Shown here one piece after another: positions 41,069 through 45,108 of a DNA stretch of 46,010 nt. Both the position numbers and the translations under genes were made by a program. The DNA comes from Dehalococcoidia bacterium (GTDB taxonomy: Bacteria > Chloroflexota > Dehalococcoidia > GIF9 > AB-539-J10). The stretch covers positions 1 through 46,010 of the forward strand of contig JALHUO010000046.1 in assembly GCA_022866545.1 (NCBI GenBank), read 5' to 3'. The notes below the pieces were generated by a model. It did no database searches, was not told the DNA's origin, and saw only the letters and a program-made list of their open reading frames with translations. Every line of letters starts with the position of its first letter. Positions within the stretch are counted from its first letter, which is position 1.

Positions 41069-41088
41069 GGTTTGTTGAGCTTGTTGAG
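41069..41088 (+). repeat. short array of the (g)gtttgttgag 9-nt unit
   Basis: ggtttgttgagcttgttgag, between the TIGR04076-like and nucleotidyltransferase genes. Same unit as the arrays at 42826-42912 and 43288-43335. Confidence 0.5.
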
Positions 41089-41121: not shown

Positions 41122-41517
41122 TCACAATTGTTTTGCTGCGCCCAGAACTTCTTTGAGGAAAGCCCGTTCCTTCATCTGCTCGAATTCTGCCTCGGTGTAA
41201 ACAAGGGGCTCTATGGGTAAGGACGTCAAGTCAAGAATTTTGCCGATACGCTGGTGCATCCTGCCCTCAAATTCGCCCACTATGACAAGGTCTATGTCGC
41301 TGCCCTGGTGGAAGTCGCCTCTGGCGAATGAGCCATAAAGATAAACCCTCTTTACTTTGTGTTTGCTCTTGAGGAGATGGGCAAATTGCCTCAACTCTTC
41401 ATAAATCTCTTGACGGTCTTCAAGATTGACCCGGCATAATTTATAGTGTTGTGCAGGACTCTGCTCAGGATTCCTCTCCCTTGGCGGGAGAGGATCAAGG
41501 TGAGGGTGAACTCTCAT
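41122..41517 (-). CDS. minimal (MNT/KNTase-type) nucleotidyltransferase domain protein
   Basis: 131 aa. VYLYGSFARGDFHQGSDIDLVIV (the GS...D.D pol-beta NTase motif). The first ~16 codons (MRVHPHLDPLPPRERN) are encoded by repeat copy B, so the true start is uncertain. Confidence 0.7.
   Translation of the reverse strand: MRVHPHLDPLPPRERNPEQSPAQHYKLCRVNLEDRQEIYEELRQFAHLLKSKHKVKRVYLYGSFARGDFHQGSDIDLVIVGEFEGRMHQRIGKILDLTSLPIEPLVYTEAEFEQMKERAFLKEVLGAAKQL
41472..41512 (-). repeat. REP-like GC-rich hairpin element, copy B (inverted relative to A and C)
   Basis: Perfect 9-bp stem tcctctccc / gggagagga (41472-41480 / 41486-41494) with a 5-nt loop, followed by caaggtgagggtgaa. Confidence 0.7.
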
Positions 41518-41860
41518 CCCAAAGTCTCCCTTATCCTTTCAAGGACGCCTTCCAGATTTGTAAGAACCTCGTTGTTCCAGAACCTCATTATCCGGTAACC
41601 ACGTTGCTCCAGCCTCTTCGTCCTCTCCTCGTCTCTTTCCTTTGTTCTCTCTTCATTGTGTTGGCCGCCGTCTATCTCAATTATAAGCCCTCTTTGGAGA
41701 CTGGCGAAGTCAACAATGTATGGGCCTATAGGCTGTTGCCTTCGGAACTTCATGCCCTCGAGCTGTCTGTTCCTTAGCTTCATCCAGAGGGCTTTTCAGC
41801 ATCCGTGTACTTCTGGCGAAGTTCGCGAGCGAAACCTACCTGTTGTTGGCTCTTTTTCAC
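41514..41860 (-). pseudogene. DUF559 (Vsr-like endonuclease fold) gene with a 1-nt frameshift near the N-terminus
   Basis: The track ORF 41514..41783 encodes (K)ALWMKLRNRQLEGMKFRRQQPIGPYIVDF...IEIDGGQH...RIMRFWNNEV. The -1 frame upstream (GTG 41860 to stop 41780) encodes VKKSQQQVGFARELRQKYTDAEKPSG*. Joined, these give the usual ARELR...T.AE..LW..LR N-terminus. Confidence 0.65.
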
Positions 41861-41962: not shown

Positions 41963-42841
41963 TTATTTCCGCCTGGCTAGGGCGTTGAGGATTATGCCGG
42001 TGAAGATGCTCAGTATGCCAGCGATGATGAACAGGGCGGTCAAGACGGCGCTGCCTACGGCTAGCTGGCCTGTTGTGTTGGCGACGTTGATCACCCTGAA
42101 CCCAAAAACGAGGCCGATCACCAACAAGATACCGCCTATGATTCCGAAGACGAACAGTGGTTTCCTCTCAGAAATCATGACGATTATCCGGCTGAGAACG
42201 TCTACGCCGTGCCTGATGGGGTTGAGGGTCGAGCCATCCTTGGTATATATGTTTGAGATGGGCACTTCAGTCACCTTGAGGCCCTTGTCGGAGGCGAACG
42301 TTATCATCTCTGATTCTACGGCGAACCCATTCGCTTTCAAATCCAGCCCGTTTATTGCCTTCGGTGAAAGGGCCCGGAAGCCGGATTCGGAATCGTAGAC
42401 ACTGGTTCTAGAAGCAAACCGGCTCGAGCGGAAAATGACTTTCTTGCCGATGCGGCGGTAGAGGGGAGTCTTGTCTTCCTGGGCTTCTCGCGAGCCGATG
42501 ACGAGGTCAAAACCATCCGAAATAGGCTTGAGGAGAACGGGAATCTCATTAGGGTCATGCTGGGCATCAGCATCCAACAAGACCAACACATCGGGATTTC
42601 TCTTTCTGGCCTCGGTCAGTATGCTCTGGATGGCCGCGCCTTTGCCCCTATTTTCAGGGTGGCGCACTACCGTGGCGCCGGCGAGCTGGGCAACCTTGGC
42701 GGTGTTATCCGTGCTCCCATCGTCAACAACGATGACCTCATCCACATACTGCTTTGTCTGGAGCACTATGCTTCCGACATATCTTGCCTCATTATAGGCA
42801 GCAATCCCAGCCAACACCTTCGGGCGAGTTTGTTGAGTCAT
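41963..42841 (-). CDS. polyprenyl-phosphate glycosyltransferase, GT2 with two C-terminal TM helices (DPM1/GtrB/AglJ-like)
   Basis: 292 aa. IAAYNEARYV, VIVVDDGSTDNT, NRGKGAA and LLDADAQHD (DxD). C-terminal helices LFVFGIIGGILLVIGLVFGF and AVLTALFIIAGILSIFTGIILNAL. Confidence 0.85.
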   Translation of the reverse strand: MTQQTRPKVLAGIAAYNEARYVGSIVLQTKQYVDEVIVVDDGSTDNTAKVAQLAGATVVRHPENRGKGAAIQSILTEARKRNPDVLVLLDADAQHDPNEIPVLLKPISDGFDLVIGSREAQEDKTPLYRRIGKKVIFRSSRFASRTSVYDSESGFRALSPKAINGLDLKANGFAVESEMITFASDKGLKVTEVPISNIYTKDGSTLNPIRHGVDVLSRIIVMISERKPLFVFGIIGGILLVIGLVFGFRVINVANTTGQLAVGSAVLTALFIIAGILSIFTGIILNALARRK

Positions 42842-42912
42842 TTGGGTTCCTTGAGTTTCTTGGGTTTGTTGAGTTCTTCGTGTTCACTGAGTTTGTTGGG
42901 TTGCTTGAGTGC
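42826..42912 (+). repeat. tandem array (~4.5 copies) of an 18-nt unit gagtttNttgggttNNtt
   Basis: Units begin at 42826, 42835, 42853, 42871, 42889 and 42907. The array spans the GT2 start codon and the C-terminal tail of the four-helix-bundle ORF. Confidence 0.7.
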
Positions 42913-43287
42913 CTGGGGCTTGCCCTTGTTCAAGGGGTATCTAATGAAACCGGAGATTAAGCGGGCTACTTCGTCGGATTTGGAGTAGAGTTCATCGAAT
43001 TTCTCTTTATTGATGTAGCCTTGGTCTAAGGCGACATAAAGCTGACTCTGGACTTCGGCGACCGAGCCTTTGGCAATAAACAGGAATTGGGTAAACTCCT
43101 TCGTTGACCTTCTTGAAAACCCCTCAGCTATATTGGACATTATGGAGACCGCAGCACTGTGATTTTGCTCCCTGAATTTGTAATCGCCAGTGAAGCCCTT
43201 GTTAGATTCTACGGCATCGTAGATTATGTTCACCAAGACTCTTGCTTCCTGCCACGCCTTAATATCTTCGAATTTCTCAATCTTCAC
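42838..43287 (-). CDS. four-helix-bundle protein of the 23S rRNA intervening-sequence protein family (PF05635-type)
   Basis: 149 aa with a GTG start. F.DIKAWQEARVLV..IY and AAVSIMSNIAEGFSRRSTKEFTQFLFIAKGSVAEVQSQL are the family hallmark. The last ~27 aa (KQPNKLSEHEELNKPKKLKEPK) are translated repeat array. Its stop overlaps the GT2 ATG (ATGA). Confidence 0.8.
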   Translation of the reverse strand: MKIEKFEDIKAWQEARVLVNIIYDAVESNKGFTGDYKFREQNHSAAVSIMSNIAEGFSRRSTKEFTQFLFIAKGSVAEVQSQLYVALDQGYINKEKFDELYSKSDEVARLISGFIRYPLNKGKPQALKQPNKLSEHEELNKPKKLKEPK

Positions 43288-43335
43288 TCAATCAGCTCAA
43301 TCAACTCTAACAACTCAATAAACCCAATGAACTCA
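43288..43335 (-). repeat. inverted array (~3 units) of the same 18/9-nt gagtt... unit
   Basis: The reverse complement reads tgagttcattgggtttatt gagttgttagagttgatt gagctgatt gagtg. It fills the whole spacer between the glmS stop and the four-helix-bundle start. Confidence 0.7.
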
Positions 43336-45108
43336 TTTGACCGTTACCGATTTGGCTAGATTGCGGGGTTTGTCGGGGTCGCACCCCCGGTTGACAGCTA
43401 GATAATAAGCCAAGAGCTGAAGGGGAACCACGGCCACCATAGGATAGAGTAACTCATCAACTTTGGGAAGCTTGATCCAGGAATCATAAACTTCGCTTTC
43501 CTTATCGGAGACACCGATAATGTACGCGCCGCGAGATTTAGCTTCAATAGCGTTGCTGAGGGTTTCAGAAAAGGTATAATCGGCAGGGCAAATCACCACC
43601 ACTGGCGTGCCGGGCTCGATGAGGGCTAAGGTGCCATGCTTTAGTTCCCCGGCGGGCATACCTTCGGCGTGGGCATAGGAAATCTCTTTAAGCTTTAAGG
43701 CGCCTTCAGAGGCGATGGCAAAGTTAATCCCTCTGGCTATGTAGTAGAAATCGTTCTTGTCTTTCAGGTTCTGACTGAGTTTGATAAGCTCGCTCTTGTT
43801 CCAGTCCAGGACTCTGGTTATCTCGCCGTTCAAGCTGGCAAGCTTAGCTGTCGCTTCATCAAAAGCATCAACCATGGAGAAAGACAACAGGTAGAATATG
43901 GCCAGTTGGGACAGGAAGGTCTTGGTGGCGGCCACAGCTATCTCGGCACCGCAGTTCAGGTAAATGACCTGGTGGCTCAGGTCAGCCAGTATGGAGTTAG
44001 GTCGGTTGATTATGGAGATGACTTGTGCGCCGTTGTCTCTGGCAGCCTTTACCCCCTCGATTATATCAGCGGTCTCGCCACTCTGGGAGACAGCGATGAC
44101 AATGGTGTTTTTGTCCACAGAGTCGGCGAAATAACCGAACTCAGAAGCCATGATTACGTCACAAAACTTCTTGCCCACTTTGGAAAAGAGATACCTACCG
44201 ACCAGAGCGGCATAACGGGAAGTGCCACAAGCAGTTATGATCACCTGATTTGCCCTCAGAATATCCAGAGCAATCTTGGTGAATGTCTTTCCGTCCTGGC
44301 AAGCTGTTTGGCCGAGCATCTGAGCTTGCTCCATTATCTCCTTGAGCATGAAATGCTGGTAGCCTCCTTTGTGGCTCTCGGCCCAGCTCTGGTCCAGTTT
44401 CCTGACTTGCTTGGCCAGCTTGTTTCCCTTGGGATCGAAGAACTGGACTCCTTCCTGTGTCAGCATCACCACCTCGTTATCTCCCAGCCCCATGACCTGA
44501 TTGGTATATTGAGAGAAAGCCAGAGCGTCACTGCTAACATAGTAATCAGTGGCGTTAATGCCGACAATTAAAGGGTTATTCCTCCTTGTGCCTACAATTT
44601 TGGCGGGGTTGTCAGGGGCCATGACTAGAAACGCATAGGAACCCTCAAGCTTTGGAGCTATGTTTAGCACAGCCTGTTCCAGGGAACACCCGCTCTTGAG
44701 CTCATCTTCGATGAGATGAGGGATGACCTCAGAGTCAGTCTCAGAGGTAAACTTGTGTCCCAGTTTGGTAAGTTCCTGGCGAAGCTGCTGATTGTTCTCG
44801 ACAATGCCATTGTGGACTACAGCTATTCTGCCACCACAATCGGAATGAGGATGAGCATTTAATTGCGTGACACCACCGTGAGTTGCCCAGCGGGTGTGCC
44901 CGATGGCGACGTTGCCGGGCAGGCTTGCCAGGTTATGCTTCTGAATGACTTCGTCGACCTTGCCAGCGTCTTTCCTTATCAATAGCCTGCCATCGGACAA
45001 GGAAGCTACGCCTGCTGAATCATAGCCACGGTATTCCAGACGCTTTAGGGCCTCGATGATAATGGGGACTGCAGGCTTCTGGCCACAATAACCAATAATA
45101 CCGCACAT
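43333..45108 (-). CDS. glmS: glutamine--fructose-6-phosphate aminotransferase (isomerising)
   Basis: 591 aa. MCGIIGY N-terminal nucleophile, HTRWATHG, two SIS domains (GTSRYA, SQSGETAD) and a C-terminal ...NLAKSVTVK. Confidence 0.95.
   Translation of the reverse strand: MCGIIGYCGQKPAVPIIIEALKRLEYRGYDSAGVASLSDGRLLIRKDAGKVDEVIQKHNLASLPGNVAIGHTRWATHGGVTQLNAHPHSDCGGRIAVVHNGIVENNQQLRQELTKLGHKFTSETDSEVIPHLIEDELKSGCSLEQAVLNIAPKLEGSYAFLVMAPDNPAKIVGTRRNNPLIVGINATDYYVSSDALAFSQYTNQVMGLGDNEVVMLTQEGVQFFDPKGNKLAKQVRKLDQSWAESHKGGYQHFMLKEIMEQAQMLGQTACQDGKTFTKIALDILRANQVIITACGTSRYAALVGRYLFSKVGKKFCDVIMASEFGYFADSVDKNTIVIAVSQSGETADIIEGVKAARDNGAQVISIINRPNSILADLSHQVIYLNCGAEIAVAATKTFLSQLAIFYLLSFSMVDAFDEATAKLASLNGEITRVLDWNKSELIKLSQNLKDKNDFYYIARGINFAIASEGALKLKEISYAHAEGMPAGELKHGTLALIEPGTPVVVICPADYTFSETLSNAIEAKSRGAYIIGVSDKESEVYDSWIKLPKVDELLYPMVAVVPLQLLAYYLAVNRGCDPDKPRNLAKSVTVK

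What the first reader, a model, noticed from the sequence alone, without database searches (positions are those of the whole stretch)
42826..43335. Four-helix-bundle (23S rRNA IVS-protein family) gene bracketed by inverted 18-nt-periodic repeat arrays: an IVS-like cassette inside an mRNA operon
The 450-nt gene sits exactly between the glmS stop (43333) and the GT2 start (42841). Both junctions are made of the same degenerate unit, gagttYNttgggtttRtt. About 4.5 tandem copies lie on the + strand at 42826-42912, and about 3 copies lie in the opposite orientation at 43288-43335. The best arms are 42852-42878 (tgagtttcttgggtttgttgagttctt) and the reverse complement of 43309-43335 (tgagttcattgggtttattgagttgtt). 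They match at 23 of 27 positions, and one mismatch is a transition that could still pair as G-U in RNA. The arrays have been co-opted into coding sequence. They supply the last ~27 aa of the cassette ORF and the MTQQT N-terminus and ATG of the GT2, with an ATGA stop/start overlap. A third short array (41069-41088) lies downstream of the orphan nucleotidyltransferase. This protein family was named for genes found inside 23S rRNA intervening sequences, which are flanked by inverted repeats that form an RNase III-cleaved stem. The same family is related to the DGR accessory protein Avd. Here the same design appears in a protein-coding operon. This suggests either a mobile cassette or a processing site that uncouples glmS from the downstream glycosylation genes.
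Basis: partly seen in the sequence, partly recalled or inferred. Interest (0 to 1): 0.6.

Follow-up and report, generated by a model that had tools for sequence, protein, structure and literature searches.

The report
Hairpin-armed four-helix-bundle cassette in glycan operon
A small, well-conserved gene of the family first found inside ribosomal-RNA intervening sequences sits between two sugar-metabolism genes of a Dehalococcoidia bacterium, bracketed by mirror-image arrays of a 9-base repeat; the gene and its arms come and go as one unit at several genomic sites and in many phyla, which I could not find described for protein-coding operons.

Summary
A 149-aa PF05635/TIGR02436 gene (42838-43287, minus strand) fills the glmS-GT2 junction. 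It is flanked by inverted 9/18-nt tandem arrays. These arrays are predicted to form a long-range stem of -45.8 kcal/mol (z -5.1).

- **Same design across the family.** It recurs in Dehalococcoidia, cyanobacterial cas operons, Bacteroidota, Gemmatimonadota and an Azospirillum 23S rRNA gene. Published work shows RNase III cutting such a stem in the Coxiella intervening sequence (IVS).
- **Insertion polymorphism.** Within this genus the junction is occupied, decayed or empty. The same cassette lineage, with the same arm type, also sits at two other junctions.
- **Host gene rewired.** The insertion replaced the first ~16 codons of GT2. Its 3' arm now supplies a Shine-Dalgarno-like (SD-like) AAGGA, the ATG (in an ATGA stop/start overlap) and a slippage-variable N-terminus.
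- **Protein under selection.** dN/dS is 0.09.
- **Arms travel with the gene.** The 9-nt unit (RAGTYNATA) follows the protein subfamily across at least 15 phyla, not the host.
- **No RNA-strand signal.** Arm mismatches show no G-U excess (99 G-U vs 104 A-C), so complementarity may be maintained at the DNA level.

I rate it a new variant of a known kind; interest 0.65.

The parts
43333..45108 (-). glmS (glutamine-fructose-6-phosphate aminotransferase); its TGA stop (43333-43335) is the first three bases of the 5' arm
   Evidence: ORF; Pfam SIS and GATase domains
43285..43335 (-). 5' arm: about 5.6 tandem 9-nt units (GAGTTCATT GGGTTTATT GAGTTGTTA GAGTTGATT GAGCTGATT GAGTG); it ends in the GTG start of the small ORF
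   Evidence: TRF; the repeat finder; duplex
42838..43287 (-). Four-helix-bundle (PF05635/TIGR02436, '23S rRNA IVS protein') ORF of 149 aa; the domain is aa 7-113 (42949-43269) and the tail from about aa 125 to 149 is encoded by the 3' arm
   Evidence: dN/dS 0.093 among 11 orthologs
42826..42912 (-). 3' arm: about 9 tandem 9-nt units of the complementary type (AACTCAANN / AACCCAANN); it overlaps the tail of the small ORF and the first codons of GT2
   Evidence: TRF
42851..42912 (-). Part of the 3' arm predicted to pair with 43285-43335 (helices of 6, 8, 7, 2, 3, 6, 2 and 7 bp separated by small loops)
42848..42852 (-). SD-like AAGGA, 6 nt upstream of the GT2 ATG, inside the last arm units; AAGGA in three of the four cassettes printed (GAAGA in the G304 copy, L039)
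   Evidence: sequence
42838..42841 (-). ATGA stop/start overlap (small-ORF TGA, GT2 ATG); present in all glmS|GT2 cassettes inspected
41963..42841 (-). GT2 glycosyltransferase; its N-terminus MTQQTRPK is arm-encoded and replaces the MKDPGLQTSDKRQKIR-type N-terminus of empty-site alleles
41069..41088 (.). Short two-unit solo array of the same unit type (gtttgttgag cttgttgag); weak on its own

Best explanation
This is a member of a widespread class of gene cassettes. The class has a four-helix-bundle (PF05635) gene bracketed by two inverted arrays of a short tandem repeat. ORF-bearing intervening sequences of 23S rRNA have the same architecture.

**What is shown**
- The gene and its arms are one heritable, transferable unit.
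- In an ancestor within this Dehalococcoidia genus, the unit was inserted precisely between the glmS stop and the GT2 gene.
- The insertion replaced about 50 nt, including the first ~16 codons of GT2.
- The 3' arm now supplies GT2 with an SD-like AAGGA, an ATG in an ATGA overlap with the cassette ORF, and a repeat-encoded N-terminus. That N-terminus varies in length by slippage.
- The 9-nt unit (three codons) keeps both overlapping reading frames intact when the array slips.

**What is predicted**
- In the polycistronic glmS-cassette-GT2 transcript the arms pair into a long imperfect stem.
- The stem starts at the glmS stop codon, sequesters the cassette's GTG start, and ends 9 nt before the GT2 ATG.
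- This loops the cassette out and brings the two host genes back to roughly their ancestral spacing.

**What is inferred only by analogy**
- RNase III, which this genome encodes, may cut this stem, as it does in the Coxiella IVS.

**What remains open**
- The protein is functional, being under strong purifying selection.
- Its role and the mechanism of insertion are unknown.
For: **Anatomy and significance:**

**Family-wide design**
- The second PF05635 copy in this genome has inverted arrays of about 8 nt with a different unit.
- Of 32 Dehalococcoidia loci, 81% exceed the 95th percentile of control ORFs for inverted arm match and 66% exceed the control maximum.
- Periodic stretches lie on both sides in 18 of 32 loci against 0 of 500 controls.
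- Of 10 plasmid-borne copies inspected, 9 score 14.5 or more for an inverted arm match, mostly heptamer arrays; the Nostoc PCC 7120 copy (L057) scores 7.5. The hosts are Cyanobacteria, Riemerella, Gemmatirosa and Azospirillum.
- The Azospirillum copy lies in a gene that Rfam calls LSU rRNA.
- Among 74 named loci of this protein's subfamily, from at least 15 phyla, 53 score 12 or more (control maximum 11).

**Published precedent**
- Coxiella IVS: a 28-bp terminal stem, tandem heptamers, RNase III cleavage at the first heptamer (PMC4990558).

**Insertion polymorphism in the genus**
- Occupied: own, G313, G304 and others.
- Decayed: G301, G337.
- Empty: G311, G306, G315.
- In the empty sites I read the spacer between the glmS stop and the GT2 start as about 6-7 nt, and the sites share a homologous ancestral GT2 N-terminus.
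- Other families have no cassette at this junction.

**Same lineage at other sites**
- Cassettes of 72-81% aa identity with the same 9-mer arms lie at the NTP-transferase|glmS-start junction in G309 and the HicB|Wzx junction in G212.

**Other points**
- dN/dS has a median of 0.093.
- Arm period tracks the protein tree: 13 changes against a null of 27.8 +/- 2.0. Within the subfamily it is 11 against 19.2 +/- 1.7.
- The unit consensus RAGTYNATA is shared with Patescibacteria and Omnitrophota cassettes.
- Long-range pairing is predicted in 9 of 10 orthologs.
- An rnc gene is present.
- No consensus promoter or terminator lies between the three genes on the coding strand.
Against: - Co-transcription, stem formation and cleavage are therefore all unshown.
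- The stem of this lineage is imperfect, about 76% complementary with a longest helix of 8 bp. It is weak in some orthologs (G313 z -1.9) and absent in the G212 copy.
- Arm mismatches show no excess of G-U-compatible over A-C types on the sense strand: 46 vs 47, then 53 vs 57, combined 99 vs 104. Selection purely on sense-RNA pairing would predict an excess.
- No transposase and no evident target-site duplication were found.
- Occupied and empty alleles interleave on the GT2 tree, with G333 occupied sister to G311 empty at 95/97 support. Homologous exchange of alleles, rather than repeated transposition, could spread the cassette.
- The same 9-mer also forms solo arrays elsewhere in the genome without any PF05635 gene.
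Confidence: 0.6

Rival explanations
1. The arms work at the DNA level. The cassette would be a foldback-type element whose inverted arrays are the substrate for insertion, excision or recombination. The arrays would be kept complementary by copying or conversion between arms. The pentameric four-helix-bundle protein would be the sequence-specific binder of its own repeat unit. The RNA stem, and any RNase III cut, would be a by-product.
For: - G-U and A-C mismatches are equal, 99 vs 104.
- The unit length and the consensus RAGTYNATA are conserved with the protein subfamily across phyla, although synonymous sites are saturated (dS about 1.2 even within the genus).
- One lineage sits at three sites with the same arm type.
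- Solo and hairpin arrays of the same unit families occur elsewhere in the genome.
- The protein is under purifying selection.
Against: - No nuclease, recombinase or reverse transcriptase lies in or next to the cassette.
- No target-site duplication is evident.
- No binding data exist.
- Unit length varies from 7 to 9 nt and copy number from 3 to more than 20 across the family. That argues against a fixed one-subunit-per-unit geometry.
- The only experimental fact for this architecture is an RNA-level event, RNase III cleavage in Coxiella.
Confidence: 0.27
2. The cassette has been domesticated as a translational or regulatory coupler. The stem juxtaposes the glmS stop and the GT2 start. Translation of the small ORF opens the stem and, through the ATGA overlap, drives GT2 translation. 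The cassette would thus tune expression of the downstream glycosylation genes relative to glmS.
For: - The stem begins at the glmS stop and ends 9 nt before the GT2 ATG, and the GTG start of the small ORF lies in the apical helix.
- The ATGA overlap is present in all occupied alleles inspected, and an arm-borne AAGGA in three of the four printed (GAAGA in the fourth).
- I read the empty alleles as having an ancestral 6-7-nt glmS-GT2 spacer.
Against: - The same cassette type sits in many unrelated operons and in rRNA.
- Decayed copies (G301, G337) keep GT2 intact.
- Empty alleles exist in close relatives.
- Any regulation is therefore likely to be secondary.
Confidence: 0.1
3. The arrays are simply part of this genome's abundant intergenic short tandem repeats. 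Their inverted arrangement around this gene would be coincidental.
For: - TRF gave about 98 period-9 rows and 97 period-7 rows for the genome, and 102 arrays of period 6-10 with at least 2.8 copies.
- The same 9-mer is present on contigs C30, C47, C111 and C137.
- A pilin-like gene also lies between inverted arrays.
Against: - Periodic arrays flank both sides in 0 of 500 control ORFs against 18 of 32 PF05635 loci.
- The inverted match exceeds the control maximum in 66% of loci.
- The design recurs across phyla, and arm type follows the protein tree.
Confidence: 0.03

Closest known systems
ORF-bearing intervening sequences (IVS) of 23S rRNA: Coxiella burnetii helix-45 IVS with S23p (PMC4990558), Leptospira IVS (Ralph and McClelland 1993, cited in PMC3936711), and the Azospirillum lipoferum copy seen here (L059)
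   Same: - The same protein family.
- The ORF lies between terminal inverted repeats built from short tandem units.
- The ORF's 3' end runs into the downstream arm.
- A stem is predicted to enclose the ORF.
- Distribution is sporadic, with decaying copies.
   Different: - The host transcript is a protein-coding operon (glmS-GT2), not rRNA.
- The unit is 9 nt rather than 7.
- The stem is imperfect.
- The 3' arm has been recruited to encode the start and N-terminus of the downstream host gene.
- RNase III excision is shown for the Coxiella IVS but not here.
PF05635 ('23S_rRNA_IVP') genes reported inside cas loci (Zhang, Doak and Ye 2013, PMC3936711)
   Same: The same family sits between co-directional genes of an operon. 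I saw cas6|cas4 and cmr2|cmr3 examples.
   Different: A term search of that paper found 0 occurrences of 'heptam' and only one text passage on this family, so no flanking repeats appear to be described. It treated the gene as a possible cas-associated function, not as an insertable cassette.
Convergent pairs of heptamer arrays in Xanthomonas (GGGAATC; PMC4692102), TAACTGA direct repeats of Beggiatoaceae and cyanobacteria (PMC4679880), and cyanobacterial STRR heptamers (from memory)
   Same: Short tandem arrays of 7-9 nt at gene boundaries, sometimes as inverted pairs. This genome also has solo and hairpin arrays of the same units as its two cassettes.
   Different: Searches of both papers for the protein family's terms ('23S', 'S23', 'helix bundle', 'intervening') found nothing. 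Here the arrays bracket a specific conserved gene and co-vary with its phylogeny.
Avd, the accessory protein of diversity-generating retroelements (bAvd, PDB 4DWL; PMC10053308)
   Same: A homologous four-helix-bundle fold. Per the cited review, Avd is classed in a CDD family together with the 23S-IVS-encoded proteins.
   Different: No reverse transcriptase, template repeat or variable repeat lies next to this gene; its neighbours are glmS and GT2.
Foldback transposons of eukaryotes and bacterial MITEs (from memory)
   Same: Long inverted termini made of tandem sub-repeats (foldback elements). Small non-autonomous elements with hairpin potential (MITEs).
   Different: No transposase is known for this cassette, no target-site duplication is seen, and it carries a conserved non-enzymatic gene.

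Membership tests
PF05635 / TIGR02436 four-helix-bundle protein (23S rRNA IVS protein family) | Profile match above the curated cut-offs over the whole domain | tested here: met
   Pfam 110.1 bits against a cut-off of 33.8, positions 1-106 of 106. TIGR02436 103.6 bits against 24.
PF05635 / TIGR02436 four-helix-bundle protein (23S rRNA IVS protein family) | Conserved core motif G-x2-R-x3-S-x3-N-x2-E (PMC3936711) | tested here: inconclusive
   S42, N46 and E49 (domain numbering) and the invariant Q35 are present. The nearly invariant Arg (position 38) is Ser here and Ser, Ala or Gly in its orthologs. V5 and P27 also differ, which looks like a subfamily trait.
PF05635 / TIGR02436 four-helix-bundle protein (23S rRNA IVS protein family) | Homology to the solved pentameric four-helix bundle Xcc0516 | tested here: met
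   PDB 2GSC, E 8.5e-14, aa 7-105. Oligomeric state was not tested.
ORF-bearing 23S rRNA intervening sequence | Located inside a 23S rRNA helix (25 or 45) | tested here: not met
   It lies between glmS and GT2. No Rfam match at E <= 1 in 42500-43600.
ORF-bearing 23S rRNA intervening sequence | Terminal inverted repeats that form a stem enclosing the ORF, with tandem short repeats in the arms | tested here: met
   The unit is 9 nt rather than 7.
ORF-bearing 23S rRNA intervening sequence | Excision from the precursor by RNase III | not testable with these tools
An rnc gene is present in the genome.
DGR accessory protein (Avd) | Encoded next to a DGR reverse transcriptase with template and variable repeats | tested here: not met
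   The neighbours are glmS, GT2, DUF559 and a nucleotidyltransferase. No RT domain is among them.
Transposable element (IS or MITE type) | Terminal inverted repeats plus a target-site duplication and a transposase (in cis or in trans) | tested here: inconclusive
   Inverted arms are present. No duplication is visible at the filled and empty junctions, where about 50 nt are replaced instead. The cassette holds no transposase. Three insertion sites of one lineage argue for movement.

The most novel reading that the evidence does not exclude
PF05635 genes and their inverted short-repeat arms form one domain-wide class of self-contained cassettes. These cassettes colonise transcribed junctions, namely rRNA helices, operon cistron boundaries and even the interior of ORFs, and they move between phyla as gene-plus-arms units. 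The four-helix-bundle pentamer would be the sequence-specific partner of its own repeat unit. That would explain why unit length and consensus follow the protein tree rather than the host. It would also tie this protein family to the unexplained excess of 7-9-nt tandem arrays in bacterial genomes and to the origin of rRNA intervening sequences.
Probability: 0.35. Interest if true: 0.85.

Novelty: new variant of a known kind. Interest (0 to 1): 0.65.

Why it matters
Intervening sequences of 23S rRNA and their conserved ORF have been known since about 1990-1993, yet they still have no accepted origin, function or mobility mechanism. The PF05635 family is large and has no assigned role outside DGRs.

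This locus shows the same architecture in an ordinary operon. It also offers several things that the rRNA copies cannot:
- natural empty, occupied and decayed alleles;
- one lineage at three different junctions;
- a host gene whose start has been rewired onto the cassette's arm;
- a protein under strong purifying selection;
- a repeat unit that co-varies with the protein across phyla.

Together these make two hypotheses directly testable: RNase III insulation of a selfish insert, and a protein that recognises its own repeat arms. They also give annotators a reason to treat four-helix-bundle genes between inverted arrays as insertions rather than as operon members.

Tried and rejected
- **Alignment query.** The search for related loci with a 22-sequence alignment failed because no stretch was conserved enough. 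I used plasmid tblastn and a single-protein scan instead.
- **RNAduplex on wide windows.** On 150 x 200-nt windows it did not discriminate, because long windows always give large energies. I replaced it with ungapped inverted-match scores against controls and partition-function pair counts.
- **G-U versus A-C mismatch test.** This was meant to show RNA-level selection and came out flat, 99 vs 104. It counts against a purely RNA-based reading.
- **Single-insertion hypothesis.** The GT2 tree interleaves empty and occupied alleles, so one clean insertion event is not supported. Recombination or repeated gain and loss cannot be separated.
- **Literature.** Five full-text searches found no description of PF05635 genes with inverted tandem-repeat arms outside rRNA. 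One of them was mostly noise.
- **Known RNA families.** No Rfam family matched.
- **DGR/Avd context.** Considered and rejected, because there is no RT nearby.
Full report
**1. What is in the window**

On the minus strand three ORFs abut:
- glmS, 43333-45108.
- A 149-aa ORF, 42838-43287, with a GTG start.
- A family-2 glycosyltransferase (GT2), 41963-42841.

The small ORF is a clear member of PF05635/TIGR02436: 110 bits against a cut-off of 33.8, and 103.6 bits against 24. Its nearest solved structure is Xcc0516, PDB 2GSC (E 8.5e-14).

Directly after the glmS TGA come about 5.6 tandem 9-nt units, GAGTTCATT GGGTTTATT GAGTTGTTA and so on (43286-43335). The last ~25 codons of the small ORF and the first codons of GT2 are built from about 9 units of the complementary type, AACTCAANN / AACCCAANN (42826-42910). 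A 16-nt unit pattern hits 10 times in the window against 0.53 expected, and 9 of those hits lie in the two arrays. The basic period is 9 nt, with 18 as a higher-order alternation.

**2. The predicted stem**

- Folding 531 nt of the minus-strand RNA puts the two arrays into one long-range stem in both the MFE and the centroid structure.
- The arm duplex (43285-43335 with 42851-42912) is -45.8 kcal/mol against -27.7 +/- 3.6 for shuffles, z -5.1.
- The partition function gives 58.6 expected arm-to-arm pairs against 10.1 with a shuffled 5' arm.
- The stem is imperfect, with helices of 2-8 bp separated by 1-3-nt loops and one larger 10-nt loop on the 3'-arm side.
- Its first pairs include the glmS stop, its apical helix includes the GTG start of the small ORF, and it ends 9 nt before the GT2 ATG.
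- No Rfam family matches.
- No consensus promoter or terminator lies between the genes on the coding strand.
- The genome encodes RNase III.

**3. The design is a property of the gene family**

- *Second copy in this genome.* The copy on contig C182 has inverted arrays of about 8 nt with a different unit.
- *Dehalococcoidia sample.*
  - 92 of 301 Dehalococcoidia genomes carry the family.
  - I analysed 32 loci: the 30 best-scoring hits plus the two in this genome.
  - Nearly all show an upstream array whose reverse complement recurs downstream, and the unit differs from copy to copy.
  - 81% exceed the 95th percentile of 300 control ORFs for ungapped inverted match, and 66% exceed the control maximum.
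  - 18 of 32 have clear periodicity on both sides, against 0 of 500 controls.
- *Where they sit.* Most lie directly after the stop of one gene and before the start of the next co-directional gene. By my reading of the flanking ORFs these include pheS|pheT, atpH|atpA, pyrG|transaldolase and pepP|efp.
- *Other phyla.* Of 10 plasmid-borne copies inspected, 9 score 14.5 or more for an inverted arm match. The Nostoc PCC 7120 copy scores 7.5, below the control maximum.
  - Examples with the layout come from Pseudanabaena, Anabaena and Picosynechococcus (between cas6|cas4 and cmr2|cmr3) and from Nostoc punctiforme, Geminocystis, Riemerella and Gemmatirosa.
  - The Azospirillum lipoferum copy lies inside a gene that Rfam calls LSU rRNA, so it is a true 23S IVS.
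- *Published precedent.* The Coxiella IVS has a 28-bp terminal stem, two or three GACAGAT heptamers upstream of the S23p ORF, and RNase III cleavage at the start of the first heptamer (PMC4990558).

**4. Filled, decayed and empty sites**

In the window's own genus the glmS-GT2 junction occurs in three states:
- Occupied: own, G313, G304, G320, G353, G333, G351, G327, G344, G345.
- Decayed: G301, with a frameshift plus an internal deletion of about aa 56-142, and G337, which is split.
- Empty: G311, G306, G315.

In the empty sites I read the glmS stop as followed after about 6-7 nt by the GT2 start. Their GT2 proteins share a homologous N-terminus (MKDPGLQTSDKRQKIR, MNDSGLQTPSTGRKRR, MKKSVIQTPDKGHKIG).

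In occupied sites that segment is gone. GT2 instead starts MTQQT... from an ATG inside the arm, always as ATGA with the small ORF's stop. It is preceded by AAGGA in three of the four cassettes printed, and by GAAGA in the G304 copy. The number of arm units after the ATG varies between genomes (MTQQTRPK, MTQQTQQTQQTH, MTQRTQGTQQTQGTQQTK and others).

The cassette therefore replaced about 50 nt, and its arm became the translation start of the host gene. A 9-nt unit lets the array slip without breaking either overlapping frame. That is a plausible reason why this lineage uses 9-mers where most of the family uses 7-mers.

More distant families lack the cassette at this junction. On a GT2 tree, occupied and empty alleles interleave. 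I therefore cannot separate repeated gain and loss from allele exchange by recombination.

**5. One lineage at three sites**

Cassettes 72-81% identical in protein to the window's, with the same GAGTT-type 9-mer arms, lie at two other junctions:
- In G309, between an NTP-transferase gene and the start of glmS.
- In G212, between a HicB-like gene and a Wzx-type flippase. G212's own glmS-GT2 junction carries an unrelated 1.1-kb insert.

All three sites are in surface-glycan gene clusters. Shuffling of island modules is therefore an alternative to transposition, but the gene and arms clearly travel together.

**6. The protein is functional**

Among 11 orthologs the median dN/dS is 0.093, with a range of 0.04-0.19 and dS about 1.2.

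**7. Arms follow the protein, not the host**

- A protein-only scan of named genomes returned 80 loci of this subfamily (43-78% identity). They come from Chloroflexota, Omnitrophota, Nitrospirota, Thermodesulfobacteriota, many Patescibacteria, Elusimicrobiota and others.
- 53 of 74 usable loci have inverted arm scores of 12 or more.
- In this subfamily the commonest period is 9 nt: 24 of 44 periodic 3' arms, against 0 of the 30 more distant Dehalococcoidia loci (Fisher p 1e-7).
- The 9-mers share the consensus RAGTYNATA. For example, AAGTTCATA occurs in Patescibacteria whose protein is 52% identical. 58% of units match GAGTTCATA at 6 or more of 9 positions, against 16.5% for a composition-matched null.
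- On a tree of 100 proteins, arm period changes 13 times against 27.8 +/- 2.0 for shuffled labels (minimum 20 of 1000). Within the subfamily it changes 11 times against 19.2 +/- 1.7. Host phyla are mixed.
- Conservation of the unit over such distances is more than a requirement for mere complementarity would predict. It points to sequence-specific recognition, and the only component that travels with the arms is the protein.

**8. A test that went against the simplest RNA reading**

If complementarity were maintained by selection on the sense transcript, G-U-compatible mismatches should outnumber A-C mismatches. They do not: 46 vs 47 in 38 loci, 53 vs 57 in 54 loci, 99 vs 104 combined. Complementarity may be kept by a DNA-level copying process between arms. 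Alternatively, the mismatches may simply be unselected.

**9. The unit elsewhere in this genome**

GAGTTCAT(A/T) arrays occur on contigs C30, C47, C111 and C137, at least nine arrays in all, without any PF05635 gene. They are often embedded in composite blocks with heptamer arrays. The unit family of the second cassette also occurs in dozens of solo arrays and in an ORF-less hairpin. It also means cassettes may either shed arms or insert into pre-existing arrays.

**10. Literature**

In the library I could search, the published pieces are:
- the rRNA IVS with heptamers (PMC4990558);
- the gene family in cas loci, with no match for heptamer terms in that paper (PMC3936711);
- heptamer arrays, including convergent pairs, with no match for the protein family's terms in those papers (PMC4692102, PMC4679880).

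I found no description of the gene-plus-inverted-array cassette in protein-coding operons. Earlier AI notes of this scan report the same architecture in many genomes. I treat them as leads only. The tests above were run here independently.

**11. Verdict**

The cassette is an IVS-type, hairpin-armed four-helix-bundle element inserted at an operon junction and partly domesticated by the host gene. RNase III processing is a reasonable inference but is unshown. A DNA-level or protein-recognition role for the arms is a serious rival.

Noticed in passing
L008, L029, L030 (Dehalococcoidia genomes G094, G028, G160): Three PF05635 cassettes sit inside what look, by motif reading only, like DNA methyltransferase genes (a DPACGSGHFL-motif enzyme and DUF1156-like enzymes). 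In each case the host reading frame stays open through the whole cassette, giving stop-free frames of 1104, 736 and 989 aa. The insert would therefore be translated through in an alternative frame of the small gene.
   Followed up: partly
own genome contigs C137 (6018-6364, 9108-9143, 12058-12204, 16773-16949), C47 (13676-13903), C30 (15384-15552): Composite intergenic repeat blocks of the form [GGGGACT-type heptamers][GAGTTCATA 9-mers][GAGACNN units][GGTGACT-type heptamers]. All lie in one orientation on C137 and none has a PF05635 gene.
   Followed up: partly
own genome C36 6031-6655: A prepilin-type gene (N-terminus ...GFTLVEVLITIGLIG...) lies between inverted TTTGGAA / AAATCCA arrays 572 nt apart. 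The arm orientation relative to the gene is opposite to that of the PF05635 cassette on C182.
   Followed up: partly
own genome C111 about 1850-2000 (same sequence at C150 1-100): An ORF-less hairpin of CAAATGNC-type arrays facing GNCATTTG-type arrays, separated by about 15 nt. The unit family is the same as the arms of the genome's second cassette (C182).
   Followed up: no
L094 (G240), glmS-GT2 junction: The same junction holds a different cargo of about 640 nt. It is a two-gene pair that looks, by eye only, like DUF4258/DUF2283 toxin-antitoxin-type proteins. GGTGATY heptamers lie upstream and the 9-mer AACTCAACA-type array lies downstream, in front of GT2. This suggests cargo exchange between arms.
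   Followed up: no
L035 (G303) and L093 (G212), glmS-GT2 junction: An unrelated insert of 1.1-1.2 kb lies directly after glmS. In G303 about 30 nt of the glmS 3' end are duplicated at its far side. The glmS 3' end appears to be an insertion hot spot in this genus.
   Followed up: no
L076 (G339) and L084 (G313, about 5 kb downstream of its first cassette): Paralogs 49-53% identical to the window's protein are flanked by long TAGAACC heptamer arrays in direct orientation on both sides. In L084 a short inverted GGTTCTA stretch lies further upstream.
   Followed up: no
L053, L055, L062 (Pseudanabaena, Picosynechococcus, Anabaena plasmids): Cassettes lie between cas6 and cas4 and between cmr2 and cmr3. 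In Pseudanabaena the arms are more than 15 copies of AAAGCTA / AAAGCCA.
   Followed up: partly
window 41122-41783: A DUF559 endonuclease-like ORF (89 aa, apparently N-terminally short against the 109-position model) directly precedes a minimal nucleotidyltransferase (PF01909). No HEPN partner was seen in the ORF list.
   Followed up: no
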